NCBI GenBank assembly: GCA_965222225.1
Contig: CBDCTK010000002.1
Coordinates: 1,792,001-1,856,000, forward strand
Reading direction: 5' to 3'
DNA length: 64,000 nucleotides
Source of the DNA: Candidatus Poribacteria bacterium
GTDB lineage: Bacteria; Poribacteria; WGA-4E; JAJDTR01
The number at the start of each line of letters is the position of its first letter. Positions within the stretch are counted from its first letter, which is position 1. A program made the translations under genes and the position numbers. The notes beneath the pieces are model-generated. The model saw only the letters and a program-made list of their open reading frames with translations, ran no database searches and was not told the origin of the DNA. Positions 49,233-54,686 of the stretch are shown here, piece after piece.

Positions 49233-50363
49233 TCACGCCCCATTGGCTTCGCTGGCTTGAGGCCTGAGCAGAATTAGCGCGACTAATGCGGCAACCGAAG
49301 AGATGGATCCTGCGACGACAAATGCCCCTGAAAGCCCAAAGATATCCGCAACGGCGCCGGATGTCATGGGGCCAAGAAACATCCCGATGGCATACGTGGC
49401 TTGAAAGGCCCCCATCGCCGTTGCACGGTCCTGATCGGGTATCTGCCGAATGCTCAAGCCCATCAGCAAAGGGTACGTCATGCCGCGTCCAAACCCACTG
49501 ATACCTTGGGTGATTGCTAGGAGTGGCAGGTTTGTGACAATGGGAACGACAAACGCCATCCCCGCCATAATGAGAATGCCCACGAAAAGCGCACGATTTT
49601 CGCCTAAACGATCGGCAACGCGATGATTGACCAGTGACGCTAGAGTGTAGGGCAGCAGGGCAACCACACCAATGACGCCGAGTGCCGATTTACTCGCACC
49701 CAATCCATCTGCATACAACGGGACAAAGCCAAATGTCGTTGCCCAGATGACATATTGATTCAGAGCGGAGATTAGCGCTGTAGTGATTACTGTCCGGTGA
49801 ATCATTACCGAGCGAATCTGTCGCACGGTAAGAGATTTTCTAATTGCTCGCGGTTCCCTAATCGGCGCGGTTGAAATAATACCGAAAACCGCCAAAATAG
49901 CACCGACATAGAATGTAGATTCCATTCACCAGATTTCGGCAATCTGTCCTCCTAGACCGATAAAGACCGTTAACGATATGCCGTTGATTGCGCTGACGAC
50001 ACCCATTGCCTTGGGCGTTTCATCCGGCGGAAAGTAACTTGCATACAATACCGTGAATCCAACCCAAGTCGACGCACTGATACCGAACACACCGCGGGCC
50101 AGGACTAGATATGCCGGGTTAGGCGCAAGAGCAAGCCCCAGGCACCCAAGCAAGTTGAAGAAGTGACCTGCGTAAAGGAAAGGCAGGCGCCTCCCCAGAC
50201 GATCCGACCAAATGCCGACCGGAATTCGCAGGAGCATTTGAACGAAACCGTACGCCCCAACAATGACACCCACGGTCGTGAATGAAGCGCCTAGCGATGC
50301 GGCGTAAACAGACAATATAGGTGAGTAGACGTATAGCGCAGCCCAATACAGAAACATCGCCAC
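49233..50363 (-). pseudogene. MFS transporter split by an in-frame TGA (49926-49928)
   Basis: GIWSDRLGRR and ADRLGE MFS motifs; halves in the same frame GGQIAEIW*MESTF. Confidence 0.75.
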
Positions 50364-50653: not shown

Positions 50654-53600
50654 CTACGATTTGTCAACTTCATGTGTGCATACATCCTCGTGGCTATCAA
50701 TCGCTGGCAAACCGACGAACATGCGGCTATCAATATCTGCAAGTGGTTCCACTGACCCCGTTACCGCCGCACGCGCAAAGACAATCCCGGGGCGATTGGC
50801 TTGCATTGCCCGACCGAGCACCGAAGCCTGATCGCCGATAGGGTTATTGCGTTTCACGCTGCGTCCAAGTTCTGCAATTTCACGTTGAACTCTGACTAGG
50901 GCTTCCCAGTGGCGGTGTGCAACTGCACGAAGATCTTCCGGTCTCAGTCCCTCCCGATAACTGCGCCGGACATTGGGCGGAGTCGGAAGACCGTATTTCG
51001 TACTGTTCCATCGCACAACCATCTGGGAGAATGATTCGAGTCTGCCCTGTGCAAGGCTTTTCACTGCGAGCAATTGTGGACCCACGTCATTGTCGCTGAA
51101 GTCCTTTCGAGTTGCGAGTTGCTCGTTCATTTCCTCGGTGTATGCCTCCCACGCCACTTCATCGTGATCCGGAGGCAAAGGCTCTCTTTCCAAGCTTTCA
51201 CCAATGAATGGACTAATTGACGCGCCTGATTCCTTCGCTAGGTCAAAACCGCGCTTCATCAATTCCTGAATGGTACAGAGCGTTTTCGTGGCGCCGTCAC
51301 GTTCCAAGACAATCTGCAGTGCCCATCCGAGCGTATTTCGCGTAATAAATCCTTCAGGTGCGTCCACGTCAACGCCCGTTAGCCTTGAGATTTCCGCGCG
51401 TCCATCTGCGGTCAGGCTCAGATTTGCAAGCCCCCACATCGGATCCAGTGCCGGTATAAGGGCTTCAAGCAATCCAGGATCGCGATTAAGTCTTGGACGG
51501 AGTCCGCGTGTAGTCGAAAATATCGGAAGCACGGAGTCTAGCGCTCCCGGGTCGCGTTCAAGATGCGAAACGAGGGTAAGTTTTTCTCGCGCCTCGGTTT
51601 GTGCAGCCTCGGTAATTGGCAGAATTACTGCGGCTTGATCTCCGTCAAAATCCACATTCATAGGCCTACAGACAACGGGTGGGATATGGATGGCATTGTC
51701 CTGGCGCCGTACCGGTCGAAATGCGAGAAACTGGGTTGGTGTTATAGCGGGAGCGCGATACAGAATCACCCACGAGCGGTTCATGATGGTATCAAGTGCT
51801 TGTGATGCATCTTTGGTTCGTTTACTGACTTCCACAGAGTTTTGAATCTCTCGTGTCACTATTGGTCCGAAAAGCTTCCATGCCATCTCTTCAGGAATTC
51901 CAATTTGATCGTGCTGTAGGCGAATATCCGGGACAATCACCCCCCGTCCGCTAAAAACTGACCGCGTGTTGAAGGCGAGATGACGGTGGGTAACGAGCAC
52001 GTCAAAATATTCTCGAACGCAAGATTCTAGCTGATAAAGCGTCTGACGAATGAGACTCTCGGGCGCATTGTTAGCAAGCATTCGATTTGCTCGATCGTTG
52101 ACCGTAACAAGGTTCTCGTAAGCAGTGGAAATGTTGGTATTTACGATTCTCGTCTCGTCAATCCACCATGCATTGTTGTATTCGCGCGGACTTGATGCGG
52201 TTCCGAAAAAGTCGCCATCTTCAGGGACGCCCACCTCGTCGATTGTATGCTGGCGCAGCCAAGGATGAGGAATTGGACGAGCTAGTTTGAGCGATTCGCC
52301 ATCAGGCGGCTTGAGACGGAATTTCATCGTCGGATAGCTCCTAGTCCCATCTCCCGATCCTAATGGGTGCGAGCCCTCAAGTTCGGTGCGAATGCCAGCG
52401 AAGGCAAGACGCTTCATCAGATTGACAAACCGCGGGGCAAAGCCAGCATGTTGTTCAACTTCTCCACGGGCGACACGATCCGCGAGTGTATTTATATCTA
52501 CCCAGTCTGTAGAGCAAGTATGGTAACGTTCATAAAGATTGTTGAAAACAGCAAGATTGCGCAAGACACTATACTCGATGTTACCTAACCCCTGGCCGTA
52601 AGTCAGTCCCTCACGAGCGGGCCTAATTTTCTCCCGCGCAATGTGGCGTACACGCCCCCAATACACCCAACCAACCGTGCTAGGGCGCTCGAGTCTTTTC
52701 CCATTCTTACCGAGTGTGAGGTATTCCATGCCATTCTCGGGCAGTCTCGCACGTTTCAGACGCTTGCTTAACTCTTCAATGCTTGGGGCACCAAAGGAGG
52801 GTACGATTATTGGTTCTCCTTCAACTTTCGCGACGCGGCTCATGATTGCTTCCCTTAATTGTCCAACGTTCATCCGTGTCTGCACGCCAAACGAGTTGTA
52901 AACAATTTCAACCGGAGTTCCCTCAGTGAGATGTGGCATTTCATCGTCCGGCACAATGCGGGAAATGCAGCCTTTCGAGCCGTGACGGTTCGCAAATGCA
53001 TCGCCGGGTTCAACAGGATAGGGGTAACTGAAACGATTCGCACACGACTCGCTAATGACGATTGCATCCTCGAAAGTATCAACTCCCCACGGTACAAAAG
53101 CCGTCAGTACATTTCGTCCGCACCAAAATCTGTCGGCATCAAAACTATTCTCGGTCTGAACAAGTGCGGGTTCGGGGTCAGGCGGAACGTAGAATTGACG
53201 CTGCATGCCCAGCCCCATTTGCTGATGGTTTGGGTCGTTGTGCTCGATAAACGGCACAAGCGAAGCACTGAGTCCGAGTCCGGCTTCCGGCCGATTATCG
53301 ACGACGATTAGCTTGCCATCGCGAATCTCTGCTCCAACTGCGATGCTCAAAATCTTACCAACACTTGGTCCCTCAGGTGTTTCATATGGACACACGCGAC
53401 TAAAATAACTCGGATTCATGACACGATTTTGCCATTCAACACGGATGCGGCGAAGATTGGTTTGTCGATCAAGCCAGTTGAAACTCTGAAGGCGCCGGAT
53501 GGATGGTTGACTCGCGAAGAATTCGAGAACCCATGTGTGGAGCGAAAACCAAGATTTAACGAGCGAGGCATCCCATGAAAAATCGGGAGGAGTGCTTCCT

Positions 53601-53935
53601 AGGCGCTCCGCGATGAAATCGCACAGTTGCTCGCCGACACATTTTATCTCGGCGGCGGCGAGATCTTCATTTTGAGCGATTGGCAGGACGATTCGCTCCT
53701 TACCATCAATATTGAATACCCCGTCATCATCTGGCTGTGGAATGTCGGTATACGATTCGTCTAGGTTGCCCGAACCGAATCCAAATGCAATCTCAATGCG
53801 ACAAGTATACGTACTTGTTGATTCAACGTGATAGCCAGCCAGCGGCATACGCACCGCGAGAAGTTCTGGTAGCCGATTGTTGGTGAATCGGTTAAACGAT
53901 TCTTTGTGCCAAAAAGCGGTAATATTGCGGGACAT
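50654..53935 (-). CDS. Miniature fused beta-beta' RNA polymerase-like protein
   Basis: Collinear RpoB motifs (GVFNIDGKER, CPYETPEG, VPFIEHND..MQRQ, FEDAIVISE, RHGSKG, RMNVGQ, TVGWVY) then RpoC motifs (LARPIPHPW, clamp helices, SGRGVI, YRAP, NVDFDGD, SYREGL); AGGAGA RBS. Confidence 0.9.
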   Translation of the reverse strand: MSRNITAFWHKESFNRFTNNRLPELLAVRMPLAGYHVESTSTYTCRIEIAFGFGSGNLDESYTDIPQPDDDGVFNIDGKERIVLPIAQNEDLAAAEIKCVGEQLCDFIAERLGSTPPDFSWDASLVKSWFSLHTWVLEFFASQPSIRRLQSFNWLDRQTNLRRIRVEWQNRVMNPSYFSRVCPYETPEGPSVGKILSIAVGAEIRDGKLIVVDNRPEAGLGLSASLVPFIEHNDPNHQQMGLGMQRQFYVPPDPEPALVQTENSFDADRFWCGRNVLTAFVPWGVDTFEDAIVISESCANRFSYPYPVEPGDAFANRHGSKGCISRIVPDDEMPHLTEGTPVEIVYNSFGVQTRMNVGQLREAIMSRVAKVEGEPIIVPSFGAPSIEELSKRLKRARLPENGMEYLTLGKNGKRLERPSTVGWVYWGRVRHIAREKIRPAREGLTYGQGLGNIEYSVLRNLAVFNNLYERYHTCSTDWVDINTLADRVARGEVEQHAGFAPRFVNLMKRLAFAGIRTELEGSHPLGSGDGTRSYPTMKFRLKPPDGESLKLARPIPHPWLRQHTIDEVGVPEDGDFFGTASSPREYNNAWWIDETRIVNTNISTAYENLVTVNDRANRMLANNAPESLIRQTLYQLESCVREYFDVLVTHRHLAFNTRSVFSGRGVIVPDIRLQHDQIGIPEEMAWKLFGPIVTREIQNSVEVSKRTKDASQALDTIMNRSWVILYRAPAITPTQFLAFRPVRRQDNAIHIPPVVCRPMNVDFDGDQAAVILPITEAAQTEAREKLTLVSHLERDPGALDSVLPIFSTTRGLRPRLNRDPGLLEALIPALDPMWGLANLSLTADGRAEISRLTGVDVDAPEGFITRNTLGWALQIVLERDGATKTLCTIQELMKRGFDLAKESGASISPFIGESLEREPLPPDHDEVAWEAYTEEMNEQLATRKDFSDNDVGPQLLAVKSLAQGRLESFSQMVVRWNSTKYGLPTPPNVRRSYREGLRPEDLRAVAHRHWEALVRVQREIAELGRSVKRNNPIGDQASVLGRAMQANRPGIVFARAAVTGSVEPLADIDSRMFVGLPAIDSHEDVCTHEVDKS

Positions 53936-54019
53936 TCTTTTCTCCTATCAAGAATTCAGGATCCGACATGTAGAGATTCGTTTTAGGTTCTTAATACCAT
54001 AGCCGGTCCTGATTTGTCC

Positions 54020-54625
54020 TCACCATTCATGCCATTCAATGCCAAGTTCCTTCCATTCGCGTGCGAGACGTTTCAGTGTATAGTGCAAACGCGATTTGAC
54101 TGTGCCTATTGGGACACCGAGTTCATCAGCGACCTGCCGAATGTCCATTTCTGCACCGTAGACGAGGTGAAGAACCTCTCGCTTCTCATCGGGCAAGTCG
54201 TCTACAAGTTCCCATAGGAATTCGGACTGTTCGGCTTGTTCAAGCATCACTTGAGGGTCTGGCGATGCGCTGTCGATTAACCAGGTTGGCATCTGTGTAA
54301 GAGCGCCATCTTCGTCATCATAGGGCTCTTCGGGAACTTCAAGTGGCTGCTGTCTGCGTCGATGCACCGTTCGAAGGTGATTAAGGGCGAGATTGGTCGC
54401 AATGCGGTAAAGCCATGACTTCAATTCGCCGCGTCCATCCCACTGTGCCGCACATGTCCATACCCGAAGGAAAACCTCTTGGACCAAATCTTCAGTGGCA
54501 CCTTCGTCTCGGACAGTACGCAGGATGTGCTTGTAGAGGACGTGCCTGTAGCGCTCAAAAAGGATTTCAAACGCAATGGTATTTCGCCCGCGAATCTGCT
54601 CAATGAGTTCCCGATCAGATTGCAT
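54020..54625 (-). CDS. ECF sigma-70 factor upstream of the mini-RNAP gene
   Basis: EDLVQEVFLRVW, SWLYRIATN, GTVKSRLH. Confidence 0.93.
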   Translation of the reverse strand: MQSDRELIEQIRGRNTIAFEILFERYRHVLYKHILRTVRDEGATEDLVQEVFLRVWTCAAQWDGRGELKSWLYRIATNLALNHLRTVHRRRQQPLEVPEEPYDDEDGALTQMPTWLIDSASPDPQVMLEQAEQSEFLWELVDDLPDEKREVLHLVYGAEMDIRQVADELGVPIGTVKSRLHYTLKRLAREWKELGIEWHEW

Positions 54626-54658
54626 CGACAGAATCCTTTCGTCGGGTTTCCACTGTGG

Positions 54659-54686
54659 ATGACACCGCAGGATGGACGACGGTTCA
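54659..54686 (-). promoter_or_regulatory. Candidate ECF-type autoregulatory promoter
   Basis: TGAACC-N16-TGTCAT (AAC / GTC pattern) just upstream of the sigma ATG. Confidence 0.45.

What the first reader, a model, noticed from the sequence alone, without database searches (positions are those of the whole stretch)
50654..54686. Candidate new system: miniature single-chain beta-beta' RNA polymerase paired with an ECF sigma factor
Seen: one intact 1093-aa ORF contains RpoB core segments followed by RpoC core segments in native order, about 40% of E. coli beta+beta' (1342+1407 aa). It keeps both double-psi barrels, NVDFDGD (51638-51658), FED, RHGxKG, RMN and RAP. It lies 84 bp downstream of an ECF sigma gene on the same strand, with no anti-sigma, phage or ribosomal-protein genes nearby. 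Known: full-length rpoBC fusions (Helicobacter, Wolbachia) and highly divergent phage single-chain two-barrel enzymes (YonO, crAss-like virion RNAP) exist; this one is a pruned paralog still alignable to cellular RNAP. Inference: an accessory orthogonal polymerase, a short-RNA/primer or signal synthase, or an RNAP-mimic regulator of the sigma.
Basis: partly seen in the sequence, partly recalled or inferred. Interest (0 to 1): 0.95.

Follow-up and report, generated by a model that had tools for sequence, protein, structure and literature searches.

The report
Miniature fused RNA polymerase plus sigma
Beside its normal RNA polymerase genes, this bacterium carries a conserved two-gene unit encoding a drastically shortened single-chain copy of the polymerase's two catalytic subunits together with a dedicated sigma factor, possibly a second, minimal transcription machine that I could not find described anywhere.

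Summary
Window 50654-53935 (-) is an intact 1093-aa ORF. It joins pruned RpoB segments to pruned RpoC segments in native order. An ECF sigma gene lies 84 bp upstream at 54020-54625 (-). The genome, a Candidatus Poribacteria relative, also has full-length rpoB and rpoC.

The protein belongs to a conserved, unnamed family of about 1000-1100 aa, found in Poribacteria, Latescibacterota, Armatimonadota and, by source labels, Chloroflexota, Planctomycetota and Hydrogenedentes. It is under purifying selection (dN/dS 0.14-0.21) and gives a confident AlphaFold model (pLDDT 87).

The cognate ECF sigma co-occurs with it in 31 of 31 Poribacteria genomes. It is adjacent in 28 of 32 testable distinct loci. 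It carries a cross-phylum ECF-type promoter, TGAACY-N14-GGTGTC.

Kept:
- both barrels
- the Asp triad
- the hybrid-binding (Rif) region
- the beta' clamp helices, which are the sigma-2 docking site
- the F-loop and bridge-helix start

Missing:
- beta lobes and flap
- beta' zinc domain and rudder
- trigger loop, jaw and the beta' C-terminus

Best reading (about 45%): a sigma-dependent minimal RNA polymerase. Rivals are a sigma-independent effector polymerase expressed through the ECF, or a core-mimic regulator of the sigma. No activity or binding is shown. I found no description in print.

The parts
54661..54686 (-). ECF-type promoter of the operon: -35 TGAACC, 14-nt spacer, -10 GGTGTC. It lies about 36 nt upstream of the ECF start codon.
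   Evidence: The motif TGAACY-N14-GGTGTC (N13 in one locus, GGCGTC in two) is visible upstream of the ECF gene in all 22 upstream regions printed (window, Poribacteria, Latescibacterota, Capsulimonas). This is the only N14/GGTGTC match in the 5.7-Mb genome. Its function as a promoter is inferred, not shown.
54020..54625 (-). ECF (group 4) sigma-70 family factor, 201 aa, sigma-2 plus sigma-4 only. It has a conserved RRRR after region 2 and a conserved P-x-W-x-[IV]-[DE] in the linker.
   Evidence: Pfam Sigma70_r2, Sigma70_r4 and Sigma70_ECF; NCBIfam TIGR02937 above its cut-off, no specific ECF model above cut-off. Alignment of 23 cognate sigmas. Co-occurs with the polymerase in 31 of 31 Poribacteria genomes.
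50654..53935 (-). Single-chain miniature beta-beta' RNA polymerase paralog, 1093 aa.
   Evidence: AlphaFold2 model with pLDDT 87.3 and pTM 0.87. Best Foldseek PDB matches are bacterial beta and beta' chains.
52370..53935 (-). Beta-derived half (aa 1-522). It corresponds to E. coli beta ~27-147 (part), 392-582 (Rif / hybrid-binding region, fork), 652-709, 793-825 (ED of Mg-B), 1058-1127 and 1182-1342. Most of beta ~150-390 (lobes) is absent, and the flap with SI2 (830-1057) is replaced by 4 residues (aa 302-305, nt 53021-53032).
   Evidence: HHalign of the family alignment against a beta alignment anchored on E. coli.
51995..52132 (-). Helical hairpin aa 602-647, equivalent to the beta' clamp helices (E. 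coli beta' 265-310). This is the docking site of sigma region 2 in canonical RNAP.
   Evidence: HHalign. When the segment is searched alone the probability is only 37% (E 3.5e-4). The AlphaFold model has two helices at 602-621 and 626-647. N613, R618, P625, L628, L636 and L647 are at least 90% conserved. Sigma binding itself is inferred.
50702..52312 (-). Beta'-derived half (aa 542-1078). It corresponds to beta' 232-310, 331-515 (second barrel), 572-652, 681-705 and 717-800 (F-loop and start of the bridge helix). Beta' 1-231 (zinc domain, zipper), the rudder (311-330) and everything beyond about 862 (trigger loop, jaw, C-terminal clamp) are absent. Aa 1030-1093 have no detectable homolog.
   Evidence: No Pfam Rpb1_3/4/5 hit at E <= 0.1.
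51638..51658 (-). NVDFDGD, the Mg-A aspartate triad (D762, D764, D766).
   Evidence: D764 and D766 are invariant in 119 of 119 homologs. D762 is Asp in 107 and Asn in 12.
53066..53071 (-). E289-D290, equivalent to E. coli beta E813/D814 (Mg-B ligands).
   Evidence: Alignment. E is kept in 93 of 119 homologs and D in 110 of 119.

Best explanation
The locus is a self-contained two-gene operon. An autoregulated ECF sigma factor is followed by a single-chain, heavily pruned paralog of the RNAP catalytic subunits (beta fused to beta', 1093 aa).

Shown:
- The protein belongs to a monophyletic, widely but patchily distributed family that evolves under purifying selection.
- It folds (in silico) like the catalytic core of bacterial RNAP.
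- It keeps the two double-psi barrels, the metal-binding residues, the RNA/DNA-hybrid-binding (Rif) region, the F-loop with the start of the bridge helix, and the clamp-helix hairpin.
- It travels with a dedicated sigma that has its own conserved promoter.

Inferred:
- The sigma docks through region 2 on the retained clamp helices and gives the mini-enzyme promoter specificity.
- The pair would then work as a small, sigma-dependent DNA-dependent RNA polymerase. It would act without the flap, the trigger loop and probably without alpha and omega, and would read TGAACY-N14-GGTGTC-type promoters or a variant of them, since sigma-4 has no flap tip to sit on.
- The first round of expression would come from host core plus this sigma. 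After that the module could feed back on itself.
- In the window's own protein one family-conserved basic residue (equivalent of E. coli beta K1065) is Ala and the GAR.GL bridge-helix motif is changed, so its activity may be modified.
For: - Identity and family. In one search, 425 clusters reach E <= 1e-30, and about 140 family clusters are listed before canonical full-length fusions appear.
- Single clan: 33 sampled mini rows separate from 30 canonical rows with SH-aLRT 100.
- Purifying selection: dN/dS 0.135-0.208 in 28 of 28 genus-level pairs.
- Confident fold, with best matches to bacterial beta and beta' chains.
- Catalytic residues: D764, D766 and R317 are kept in 119 of 119 homologs, the full Asp triad in 107 of 119, and the Rif-region residues are conserved.
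- The clamp helices are retained while neighbouring modules are deleted.
- Sigma coupling: in Poribacteria, 31 of 31 genomes with the polymerase have the cognate ECF next to it. Two further genomes have only ECF remnants and no mini-polymerase. 143 genomes have neither.
- Adjacency: 28 of 32 testable distinct loci have the ECF directly upstream, and one more has it 3 kb upstream across an inserted peptidase gene.
- Predicted gene overlap of 13-19 nt in Latescibacterota and Capsulimonas loci.
- One genome has two polymerases, each with its own ECF.
- The promoter is conserved across three phyla.
- Precedent, from passages of PMC5467207 read: YonO is an active single-chain RNAP without trigger-loop homology.
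Against: - No binding or activity is shown.
- The beta flap, which positions sigma-4 for -35 recognition in canonical RNAP (established knowledge, recalled), is deleted, yet the conserved promoter has a classical -35/-10 layout with canonical spacing. That layout fits the host core at least as well.
- The trigger loop, rudder, zinc domain, jaw and downstream clamp are absent.
- Active-site residues vary. Only 56 of 119 homologs keep all 16 canonical sites examined, and 77 of 119 keep all five metal ligands. Twelve have Asn for the first Asp. A small group has several changes together: four sequences combine K321I/M, H431Y/W and R727P/Q, and three more carry related sets. One Latescibacterota member reads EVYFDGD.
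- Some members lack an adjacent ECF (L026, L138), and genome G321 has no cognate ECF at E <= 1e-25.
- The clamp-helix homology is weak when that segment is searched alone (37%).
- The only extra target found, an ABC-2 permease pair, is an ordinary ECF-type target.
Confidence: 0.45

Rival explanations
1. The ECF sigma works only with the host core RNAP, as the dedicated activator of the operon and of a few other genes. The mini-polymerase is the output: a sigma-independent RNA-synthesising enzyme in the manner of YonO, or a maker of short RNAs, primers or RNA on special templates.
For: - The classical ECF -35/-10 promoter has canonical spacing and fits a flap-bearing host core.
- A second copy of the promoter drives an ABC-2 permease pair in 7 of the 9 system-bearing genomes of the genus.
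- The flap is deleted in the mini-enzyme.
- Members exist without any cognate ECF (L026, G321).
- YonO works as a single chain (passages of PMC5467207).
Against: - The clamp-helix hairpin is kept and conserved in an otherwise stripped enzyme.
- Co-occurrence is strict, and the sigma decays where the polymerase is gone.
- The genes overlap in several phyla, which suggests equimolar synthesis.
- A duplicated system keeps one sigma per polymerase.
Confidence: 0.27
2. The mini-polymerase is a core mimic that regulates the sigma. It holds the ECF on its clamp helices in place of the missing anti-sigma factor, and releases it on a signal sensed at its active site or Rif pocket. Candidate signals are nucleotides, RNAP-targeting antibiotics or phage inhibitors. 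The freed sigma then turns on host-core transcription, for example of an exporter.
For: - No anti-sigma gene lies in the operon or among the ORFs scanned next to it.
- The clamp helices and the Rif-pocket residues are kept.
- Active-site residues are relaxed in part of the family.
- The extra target in the genus is an ABC-2 transporter pair.
Against: - D764, D766 and R317 are invariant in 119 of 119 homologs, and most catalytic and hybrid-binding residues are conserved over about 1000 aa. That is far more than a sigma-binding decoy needs.
- The sigma's detectable regulon is little more than its own operon, so a sequestering loop would regulate almost nothing.
Confidence: 0.15
3. A polymerase of a phage, plasmid or other mobile element, or a decaying rpoBC duplicate with no cellular role.
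For: - The distribution is patchy across phyla: 31 of 176 Poribacteria and 65 of 168 Latescibacterota genomes.
- Compact fused two-barrel proteins exist on jumbo-phage-like contigs.
Against: - No full-length relative was found in the viral collection. The 13 hits there cover only aa ~284-786, and the one inspected (L105) belongs to a different, 1565-aa-plus-split architecture.
- There are no PADLOC hits, and the only PHROG hits are generic beta and beta' families.
- The ORFs scanned around it are housekeeping-type.
- dN/dS is about 0.15 and the ORFs are intact.
Confidence: 0.05

Closest known systems
YonO of Bacillus subtilis prophage SPbeta (single-chain two-barrel RNAP)
   Same: Both are a single polypeptide of about 100 kDa related to multisubunit RNAP. 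Both lack recognisable trigger-loop homology and many accessory domains. YonO is an active DNA-dependent RNAP (PMC5467207: abstract in the listing and passages).
   Different: By that paper YonO shares only a few active-site residues with beta and beta', and it is prophage-encoded. The present family is readily alignable to bacterial beta and beta' (Pfam E 6.5e-37, HHalign 100%) and is chromosomal without phage context. It is also paired with an ECF sigma. Whether YonO uses a sigma was not established from what I read.
Full-length rpoB-rpoC fusions (Helicobacter / Wolbachia type; NCBIfam PRK09603, PRK14844)
   Same: Both are beta-then-beta' in one chain. These models give local matches.
   Different: Those proteins are about 2840-2890 aa and are, from recall, the cell's only core enzyme. 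Here the scores are 148 and 157 bits against cut-offs of 5372 and 4632. About 60% of the sequence is deleted, and separate full-length rpoB and rpoC are present.
Orf6 of yeast linear killer plasmid pGKL2 (982-aa Rpb2::Rpb1 fusion)
   Same: It shows the same design principle. The two large-subunit genes are fused in the same order and about half of the coding sequence is deleted (PMC2919709, passage read).
   Different: It is of eukaryotic ancestry and sits on a cytoplasmic plasmid with no sigma. No sequence comparison was made here.
Jumbo-phage non-canonical multisubunit RNAPs (phiKZ / AR9 type) and crAss-like or P23-45 virion RNAPs
   Same: All are reduced two-barrel enzymes lacking alpha and omega.
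   Different: The architecture and context differ. They are viral, split into several genes and longer. Similarity to the query is limited to the two barrels (39% over 132 aa). Foldseek against viral models gives TM <= 0.39.
ECF sigma factors lacking an anti-sigma factor (non-canonical ECF groups)
   Same: It is a two-domain sigma with an autoregulatory-looking -35/-10 promoter and no anti-sigma gene nearby.
   Different: The conserved partner is an RNAP-core paralog. The terms Rpb, RNA_pol, RpoB and RpoC do not occur in the main text of the ECF re-classification paper PMC7826278. Its supplements, which list the genomic context of each group, could not be seen.

Membership tests
Two-barrel (multisubunit-type) RNA polymerase catalytic core | Beta-type double-psi barrel / hybrid-binding domain with the GDK..RHG.KG and ED motifs | tested here: met
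   Pfam Rpb2_6 at E 6.5e-37. NRHGSKG and TFED are present. In the window's protein the K of GDK is Ala; it is K in 106 of 119 homologs.
Two-barrel (multisubunit-type) RNA polymerase catalytic core | Beta'-type double-psi barrel with the NADFDGD Mg-A triad | tested here: met
   Pfam Rpb1_2 at E 3.2e-17. NVDFDGD at aa 760-766.
Two-barrel (multisubunit-type) RNA polymerase catalytic core | Bridge helix | tested here: inconclusive
   Aa 950-1027 align to beta' 718-797 (96.7%), and the model has a helix at 999-1030. The family consensus keeps EGL...GAR.GL, but the window's protein reads HRHWEAL there, and the rest of the helix is not conserved.
Two-barrel (multisubunit-type) RNA polymerase catalytic core | Trigger loop | tested here: not met
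   Nothing aligns to beta' beyond about 862. Aa 1030-1093 have no significant match. No Pfam Rpb1_5 hit.
Bacterial RNAP core able to form a sigma holoenzyme | Beta' clamp helices (sigma region 2 site) | tested here: met
   Aa 602-647 align to beta' 265-310, sharing the pattern N.RL.RL...AP...L..V..L, and form a helical hairpin in the model. When the segment is searched alone the probability is only 37%. Binding was not tested.
Bacterial RNAP core able to form a sigma holoenzyme | Beta flap with flap-tip helix (sigma region 4 site) | tested here: not met
   E. coli beta 830-1057 is replaced by 4 residues between well-aligned blocks.
Bacterial RNAP core able to form a sigma holoenzyme | Assembly with the alpha dimer and omega | not testable with these tools
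The beta' C-terminal region, which binds omega in canonical RNAP (recalled), is absent.
Full-length RpoBC fusion (NCBIfam PRK09603 / PRK14844) | Whole-protein score above the curated cut-off | tested here: not met
   147.8 against 5372 bits and 157 against 4632 bits.
YonO-like prophage single-chain RNAP | Prophage or viral genomic context | tested here: not met
   No full-length relative in viral contigs. The ORFs scanned around it are cellular-type. PHROG hits are generic beta and beta' only.
YonO-like prophage single-chain RNAP | Templated RNA synthesis by the single chain | not testable with these tools
   This needs biochemistry.
ECF (group 4) sigma-70 factors | Only regions 2 and 4; matches the ECF superfamily model | tested here: met
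   Sigma70_r2, Sigma70_r4 and Sigma70_ECF. TIGR02937 scores 108.3 bits against a cut-off of 42.9.
ECF (group 4) sigma-70 factors | Cognate anti-sigma factor encoded beside it | tested here: not met
   The only neighbour conserved across phyla is the mini-polymerase. No anti-sigma domain was found in the flanking ORFs scanned.
ECF (group 4) sigma-70 factors | Assignment to a named ECF group | not tested
   No ECF-group models were on hand. No specific NCBIfam ECF model reaches its cut-off.

The most novel reading that the evidence does not exclude
The ECF sigma and the 1093-aa chain together form a complete, orthogonal second transcription machine. It would be the smallest sigma-dependent RNA polymerase known, working without alpha, omega, flap or trigger loop. 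It would be able to keep its own operon, and a few targets, transcribed independently of the host core enzyme, for instance when that enzyme is blocked by antibiotics or phage factors.
Probability: 0.3. Interest if true: 0.92.

Novelty: new variant of a known kind. Interest (0 to 1): 0.82.

Why it matters
Bacteria are taught to have one RNA polymerase core. A conserved, chromosomal, selection-maintained second catalytic core of only about 1000 residues, tied to its own sigma, would qualify that rule.

- It would define experimentally what the minimal sigma-dependent two-barrel polymerase needs. Nature has already done the deletion series here: no lobes, flap, rudder, zinc domain, trigger loop or jaw.
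- It would bear on how multisubunit RNAPs evolved from simpler two-barrel enzymes.
- It could yield a compact orthogonal sigma-and-polymerase pair for synthetic biology.
- If it instead proves to be a core mimic that controls a sigma, that would be a new kind of sigma regulation.

Tried and rejected
Complex prediction. Mini-polymerase aa 1-799 (alignment A1) was folded with the ECF (alignment A2). The result was no verdict: scores 0.25 and 0.29 against a mark of 0.32, and the controls were not run. This is neither for nor against binding.

Metagenome scan with the family alignment. The patterns chosen by the tool also hit canonical rpoB. Only L025-L027 of 80 loci were family members.

ECF-polymerase fusion proteins as Rosetta-stone evidence. 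None turned up among the listed hits, whose family members are at most 1106 aa. An apparent 1233-aa open frame in G328 is only an out-of-frame overlap with the ECF gene. L160 and L161 were fetched for the same reason and not examined.

Regulon search.
- The loose pattern gave 13 matches against 4 for the reversed control in the own genome. Nine lie inside ORFs of at least 100 aa, three more have no plausible downstream gene, and only the ECF's own copy is well placed.
- Five other system-bearing genomes each show their own promoter plus chance-level extras.
- A duplicated match in G188 lies inside a duplicated 725-aa ORF on the other strand.

Expression. Pieces of both genes occur in contigs of four metatranscriptome runs from two studies, at lower word depth than the flanks. 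The tool warns that DNA can be present in such libraries, so this does not show transcription.

Defence-system membership. No PADLOC hit.

Other.
- Papers: searches, and a term look-up in PMC7826278, found no description of such a protein.
- Iyer & Aravind 2012 (J Struct Biol), which may discuss unusual bacterial RNAP homologs, is not held.

Full report
OBSERVATION

The ORF at 50654-53935 on the minus strand is intact and encodes 1093 aa. Pfam finds, in order, RNA_pol_Rpb2_3 (aa 159-204), RNA_pol_Rpb2_6 (308-440, E 6.5e-37) and RNA_pol_Rpb1_2 (711-784, E 3.2e-17). NCBIfam rpoB, rpoC and rpoBC-fusion models match only locally and far below their cut-offs.

The ECF sigma (201 aa, sigma-2 plus sigma-4) ends 84 bp upstream. 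The same contig also carries full-length rpoB and rpoC (open frames 1439 and 1434 aa). The ten flanking ORFs scanned are ordinary: glycosyltransferase, RimK, an MFS transporter split by a stop codon, methyltransferase, FdhD, glyoxalase, HisD and AroA. Downstream of the polymerase stop the MFS gene has its own sigma-70-like promoter match. The unit is therefore the two genes alone.

A REAL FAMILY

- The word-indexed search listed 119 other proteins of 727-1106 aa, 43-88% identical over 98-100% of the query in all but one (a 727-aa fragment covering 67%). All carry Rpb2_6 and Rpb1_2, and most also Rpb2_3. Those that have a source name are called hypothetical or are named by their Pfam domains. 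The organism labels are Poribacteria, Hydrogenedentes, Chloroflexi / Ktedonobacteraceae and Planctomycetota.
- The exhaustive search of 1.84 billion representatives found 425 clusters at E <= 1e-30. About 140 family clusters, many of them fragments, rank ahead of the first canonical full-length fusions.
- Named genome records place the window's closest relatives (83-88%) in Candidatus Poribacteria, and more distant ones in Latescibacterota (44%) and Capsulimonas (39%).
- Within Poribacteria, 31 of 176 genomes have it. It is confined to two families, 8 of 10 and 22 of 29 genomes (G000 not counted), and is absent from 112 of 112 genomes of the largest family.
- In the Latescibacterota sample, 65 of 168 genomes have it.
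- On a tree of the two barrels, 33 sampled family members form one clan against 30 canonical sequences, with SH-aLRT 100. The 33 were the query, four close relatives and 28 drawn at random from the 85 rows of A1. The canonical rows were the first 30 of the E. coli / metagenome loci that held both subunits.
- Pairwise dN/dS among eight genus-level orthologs is 0.135-0.208 in all 28 pairs. The eight pairs with the more distant L024 were saturated.
- No solved structure, PADLOC family or phage-specific PHROG corresponds to it.

ANATOMY

An AlphaFold2 model built on 85 family sequences is confident: mean pLDDT 87.3 and pTM 0.87. The low-confidence segments are 524-530, 577-599, 796-817 and 1081-1093. 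Its best Foldseek matches in the PDB are bacterial and plastid beta chains and bacterial beta' chains. Viral models match less well.

Profile-profile alignment to beta and beta' alignments anchored on E. coli gives this map.

| Mini residues | Equivalent | Note |
|---|---|---|
| ~10-85 | beta 31-147 | 90% |
| 34-205 | beta 394-582 | Rif-cluster I residues Q513, D516, N519, H526, R528, R529 conserved; fork loop 2 shortened |
| 211-268 | beta 652-709 | |
| 269-301 | beta 793-825 | ED motif |
| 302-305 | replaces beta 830-1057 | four residues in place of the whole flap and SI2 |
| 306-375 | beta 1058-1127 | |
| 376-522 | beta 1182-1342 | |
| 542-575 | beta' 232-264 | beta' 1-231 absent |
| 602-647 | beta' 265-310 | clamp helices |
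| (gap) | beta' 311-330 | rudder, absent |
| 648-793 | beta' 331-490 | second barrel |
| 842-1027 | beta' 572-797 | 98%; funnel, F-loop, start of bridge helix |
| 1030-1093 | no detectable homolog | although strongly conserved within the family |

Nothing corresponds to the trigger loop, the jaw or the beta' C-terminus. The clamp-helix assignment is the weakest link when that segment is searched alone (37%, E 3.5e-4). It is supported by its position, by the shared sequence pattern and by the modelled helical hairpin.

ACTIVE SITE

Sixteen canonical sites were scored in 119 homologs.

| Site (P0001 numbering) | Kept |
|---|---|
| R317, D764, D766 | 119 of 119 |
| D762 | Asp in 107, Asn in 12 |
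| E289 (Glu of the ED pair) | 93 |
| D290 (Asp of the ED pair) | 110 |
| K313 (equivalent of beta K1065) | 106 |

- 56 homologs keep all 16 sites, and 77 keep all five metal ligands.
- The window's protein deviates only by K313A. Within its genus this position is A, M, S, T or K.
- It also has HRHWEAL in place of the family's GAR.GL at the start of the bridge helix.
- Seven sequences carry three or more substitutions (P0086, P0093, P0098, P0103, P0112, P0115 and P0013). One close relative, P0013, has the D-to-N change, an R-to-Q change and a small deletion.
- One Latescibacterota member reads EVYFDGD.

Most members therefore look like competent nucleotidyl transferases, but the constraint is not uniform.

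THE SIGMA

- The only neighbour conserved across phyla is the ECF sigma.
- I count 32 testable distinct loci: L006-L015, L024, L026, L027 and L120-L138. L016-L023 and L119 repeat genomes already counted, and L025 starts at the gene.
- The sigma lies directly upstream on the same strand in 28 of these.
- In L007 it lies 3 kb upstream, across an inserted S9-peptidase gene.
- It was not found in L026, L027 (a partial, N-terminally short copy) and L138.
- In Latescibacterota and Capsulimonas the predicted genes overlap by 13-19 nt.
- In Poribacteria every one of the 31 genomes with the polymerase has the cognate sigma (E <= 6e-73) beside it.
- Two further genomes hold only a remnant: one with two in-frame stops and one partial. 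Neither has a mini-polymerase.
- Genome G248 has two polymerases, each with its own sigma.
- Genome G321 has an intact polymerase but no cognate sigma at E <= 1e-25.
- The 23 aligned cognate sigmas share an invariant RRR after region 2.4 and a conserved P-x-W-x-[IV]-[DE] in the linker.

PROMOTER

Upstream of the sigma gene, all 22 regions printed show TGAACY, 14 nt (13 in one) and GG[TC]GTC. They cover the window, Poribacteria, Latescibacterota and Capsulimonas. The layout is that of a classical ECF promoter, a comparison I make from recall.

- The window's copy (54661-54686, minus strand) is the only exact N14/GGTGTC match in its 5.7-Mb genome.
- Looser matches are at chance level and mostly intragenic.
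- Five other genomes each show their own copy plus chance-level extras.
- In 7 of the 9 system-bearing genomes of the genus (not G000, not G022) a second copy exists. It shares the spacer and about 20 nt of leader.
- In the four genomes whose context I fetched, it lies directly before a pair of ABC-2/DUF3526 permease genes. In three of them it is about 25 kb from the operon, and in G024 about 626 kb away.
- The window's genome has the orthologous permease gene without this promoter.

INTERPRETATION

What is shown is a conserved, selected, two-gene module: a dedicated ECF sigma and a single-chain catalytic core. The core has lost nearly every accessory module but kept the chemistry, the hybrid-binding surface and the sigma-2 docking hairpin.

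My preferred mechanism (about 45%) is that the two proteins form a minimal sigma-dependent RNA polymerase. YonO shows that a single-chain two-barrel enzyme without trigger-loop homology can be an efficient, processive RNAP (PMC5467207, passages).

The main difficulty is the missing flap. A canonical -35/-10 promoter with canonical spacing is what one expects for host core plus ECF, so the host enzyme probably reads this promoter at least initially. If the mini-enzyme uses the sigma, it must place sigma-4 differently. Two candidates are the family-specific insert at aa 523-600 and the conserved C-terminal 1039-1076 segment.

- Rival 1 (27%): the sigma serves only to express the polymerase, which then acts without it.
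- Rival 2 (15%): the protein is a core mimic that sequesters the sigma. The depth of catalytic conservation, and the near-absence of a regulon to regulate, argue against this.
- Rival 3 (about 5%): a mobile-element or decaying origin.

The complex prediction gave no verdict and is not used either way.

COMPARISON AND NOVELTY

The nearest things known are:
- YonO, which is a single chain but prophage-borne and barely alignable;
- full-length RpoBC fusions, which have the same order but are complete and housekeeping;
- pGKL2 Orf6, which follows the same fuse-and-prune design in a yeast plasmid (PMC2919709, passage);
- jumbo-phage split polymerases.

From what I read and recall, none is a chromosomal bacterial paralog coupled to a sigma factor. 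My searches of the held literature found no description. One possibly relevant review was not available, and the supplements of the ECF classification paper could not be seen.

I rate it a new variant of a known kind, of high interest, with function still open.

Noticed in passing
window 49233-50363 (-): The MFS transporter gene directly downstream of the polymerase is split into 145-aa and 230-aa ORFs by a single in-frame TGA (49926-49928), followed at once by ATG. Both halves hit MFS_1. It could be a pseudogene, a sequencing error or a recoded stop.
   Followed up: partly
L152-L155 (genomes G025, G026, G023, G024); own-genome ortholog at G000:C2:1872565-1874085 (L156), outside the window: A second copy of the ECF promoter, with the same spacer and about 20 nt of shared leader (ATC[CA]ACAGTG..AACCCG), sits before a pair of ABC-2/DUF3526 permease genes. 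It occurs in 7 of the 9 system-bearing genomes of the genus. The window's genome has the gene but not the promoter.
   Followed up: yes
L105:5379-13757 (viral contig; likewise L106-L117): Contigs in the viral collection (24-211 kb; L105 is 176 kb) match the two barrels. In L105 a 1565-aa ORF joins beta to the N-terminal half of beta', with a weak intein-splicing hit inside the beta part. A separate ORF with Rpb1_4 and Rpb1_5 hits follows. This is a different compact two-barrel architecture.
   Followed up: partly
G248:C1:1427408-1431186 and 3367761-3371731: One Latescibacterota genome carries two complete ECF-plus-mini-polymerase pairs.
   Followed up: partly
L007:5233-7638: In one Poribacteria genome an 801-aa S9 peptidase / PD40 gene is inserted between the ECF and the polymerase genes.
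   Followed up: partly
protein atlas: Besides two clusters of this family (135 and 73 members, about 1006-1026 aa), the atlas lists several other unnamed clusters of fused Rpb2_6 + Rpb1_2 proteins of 1221-1787 aa. Compact fused two-barrel polymerases may therefore be more varied than those described.
   Followed up: no
L159 (G328:C92): This family member reads EVYFDGD (first Asp replaced by Tyr) and has extra insertions. Its high-GC open frame overlaps the ECF gene out of frame for about 190 codons.
   Followed up: partly
G105 (Poribacteria family f4): The string TGAACCCCAGCGGGGTGACAGGTGTC occurs 11 times in one genome that lacks the system. It is probably a repeat element, unrelated to the promoter.
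   Followed up: no
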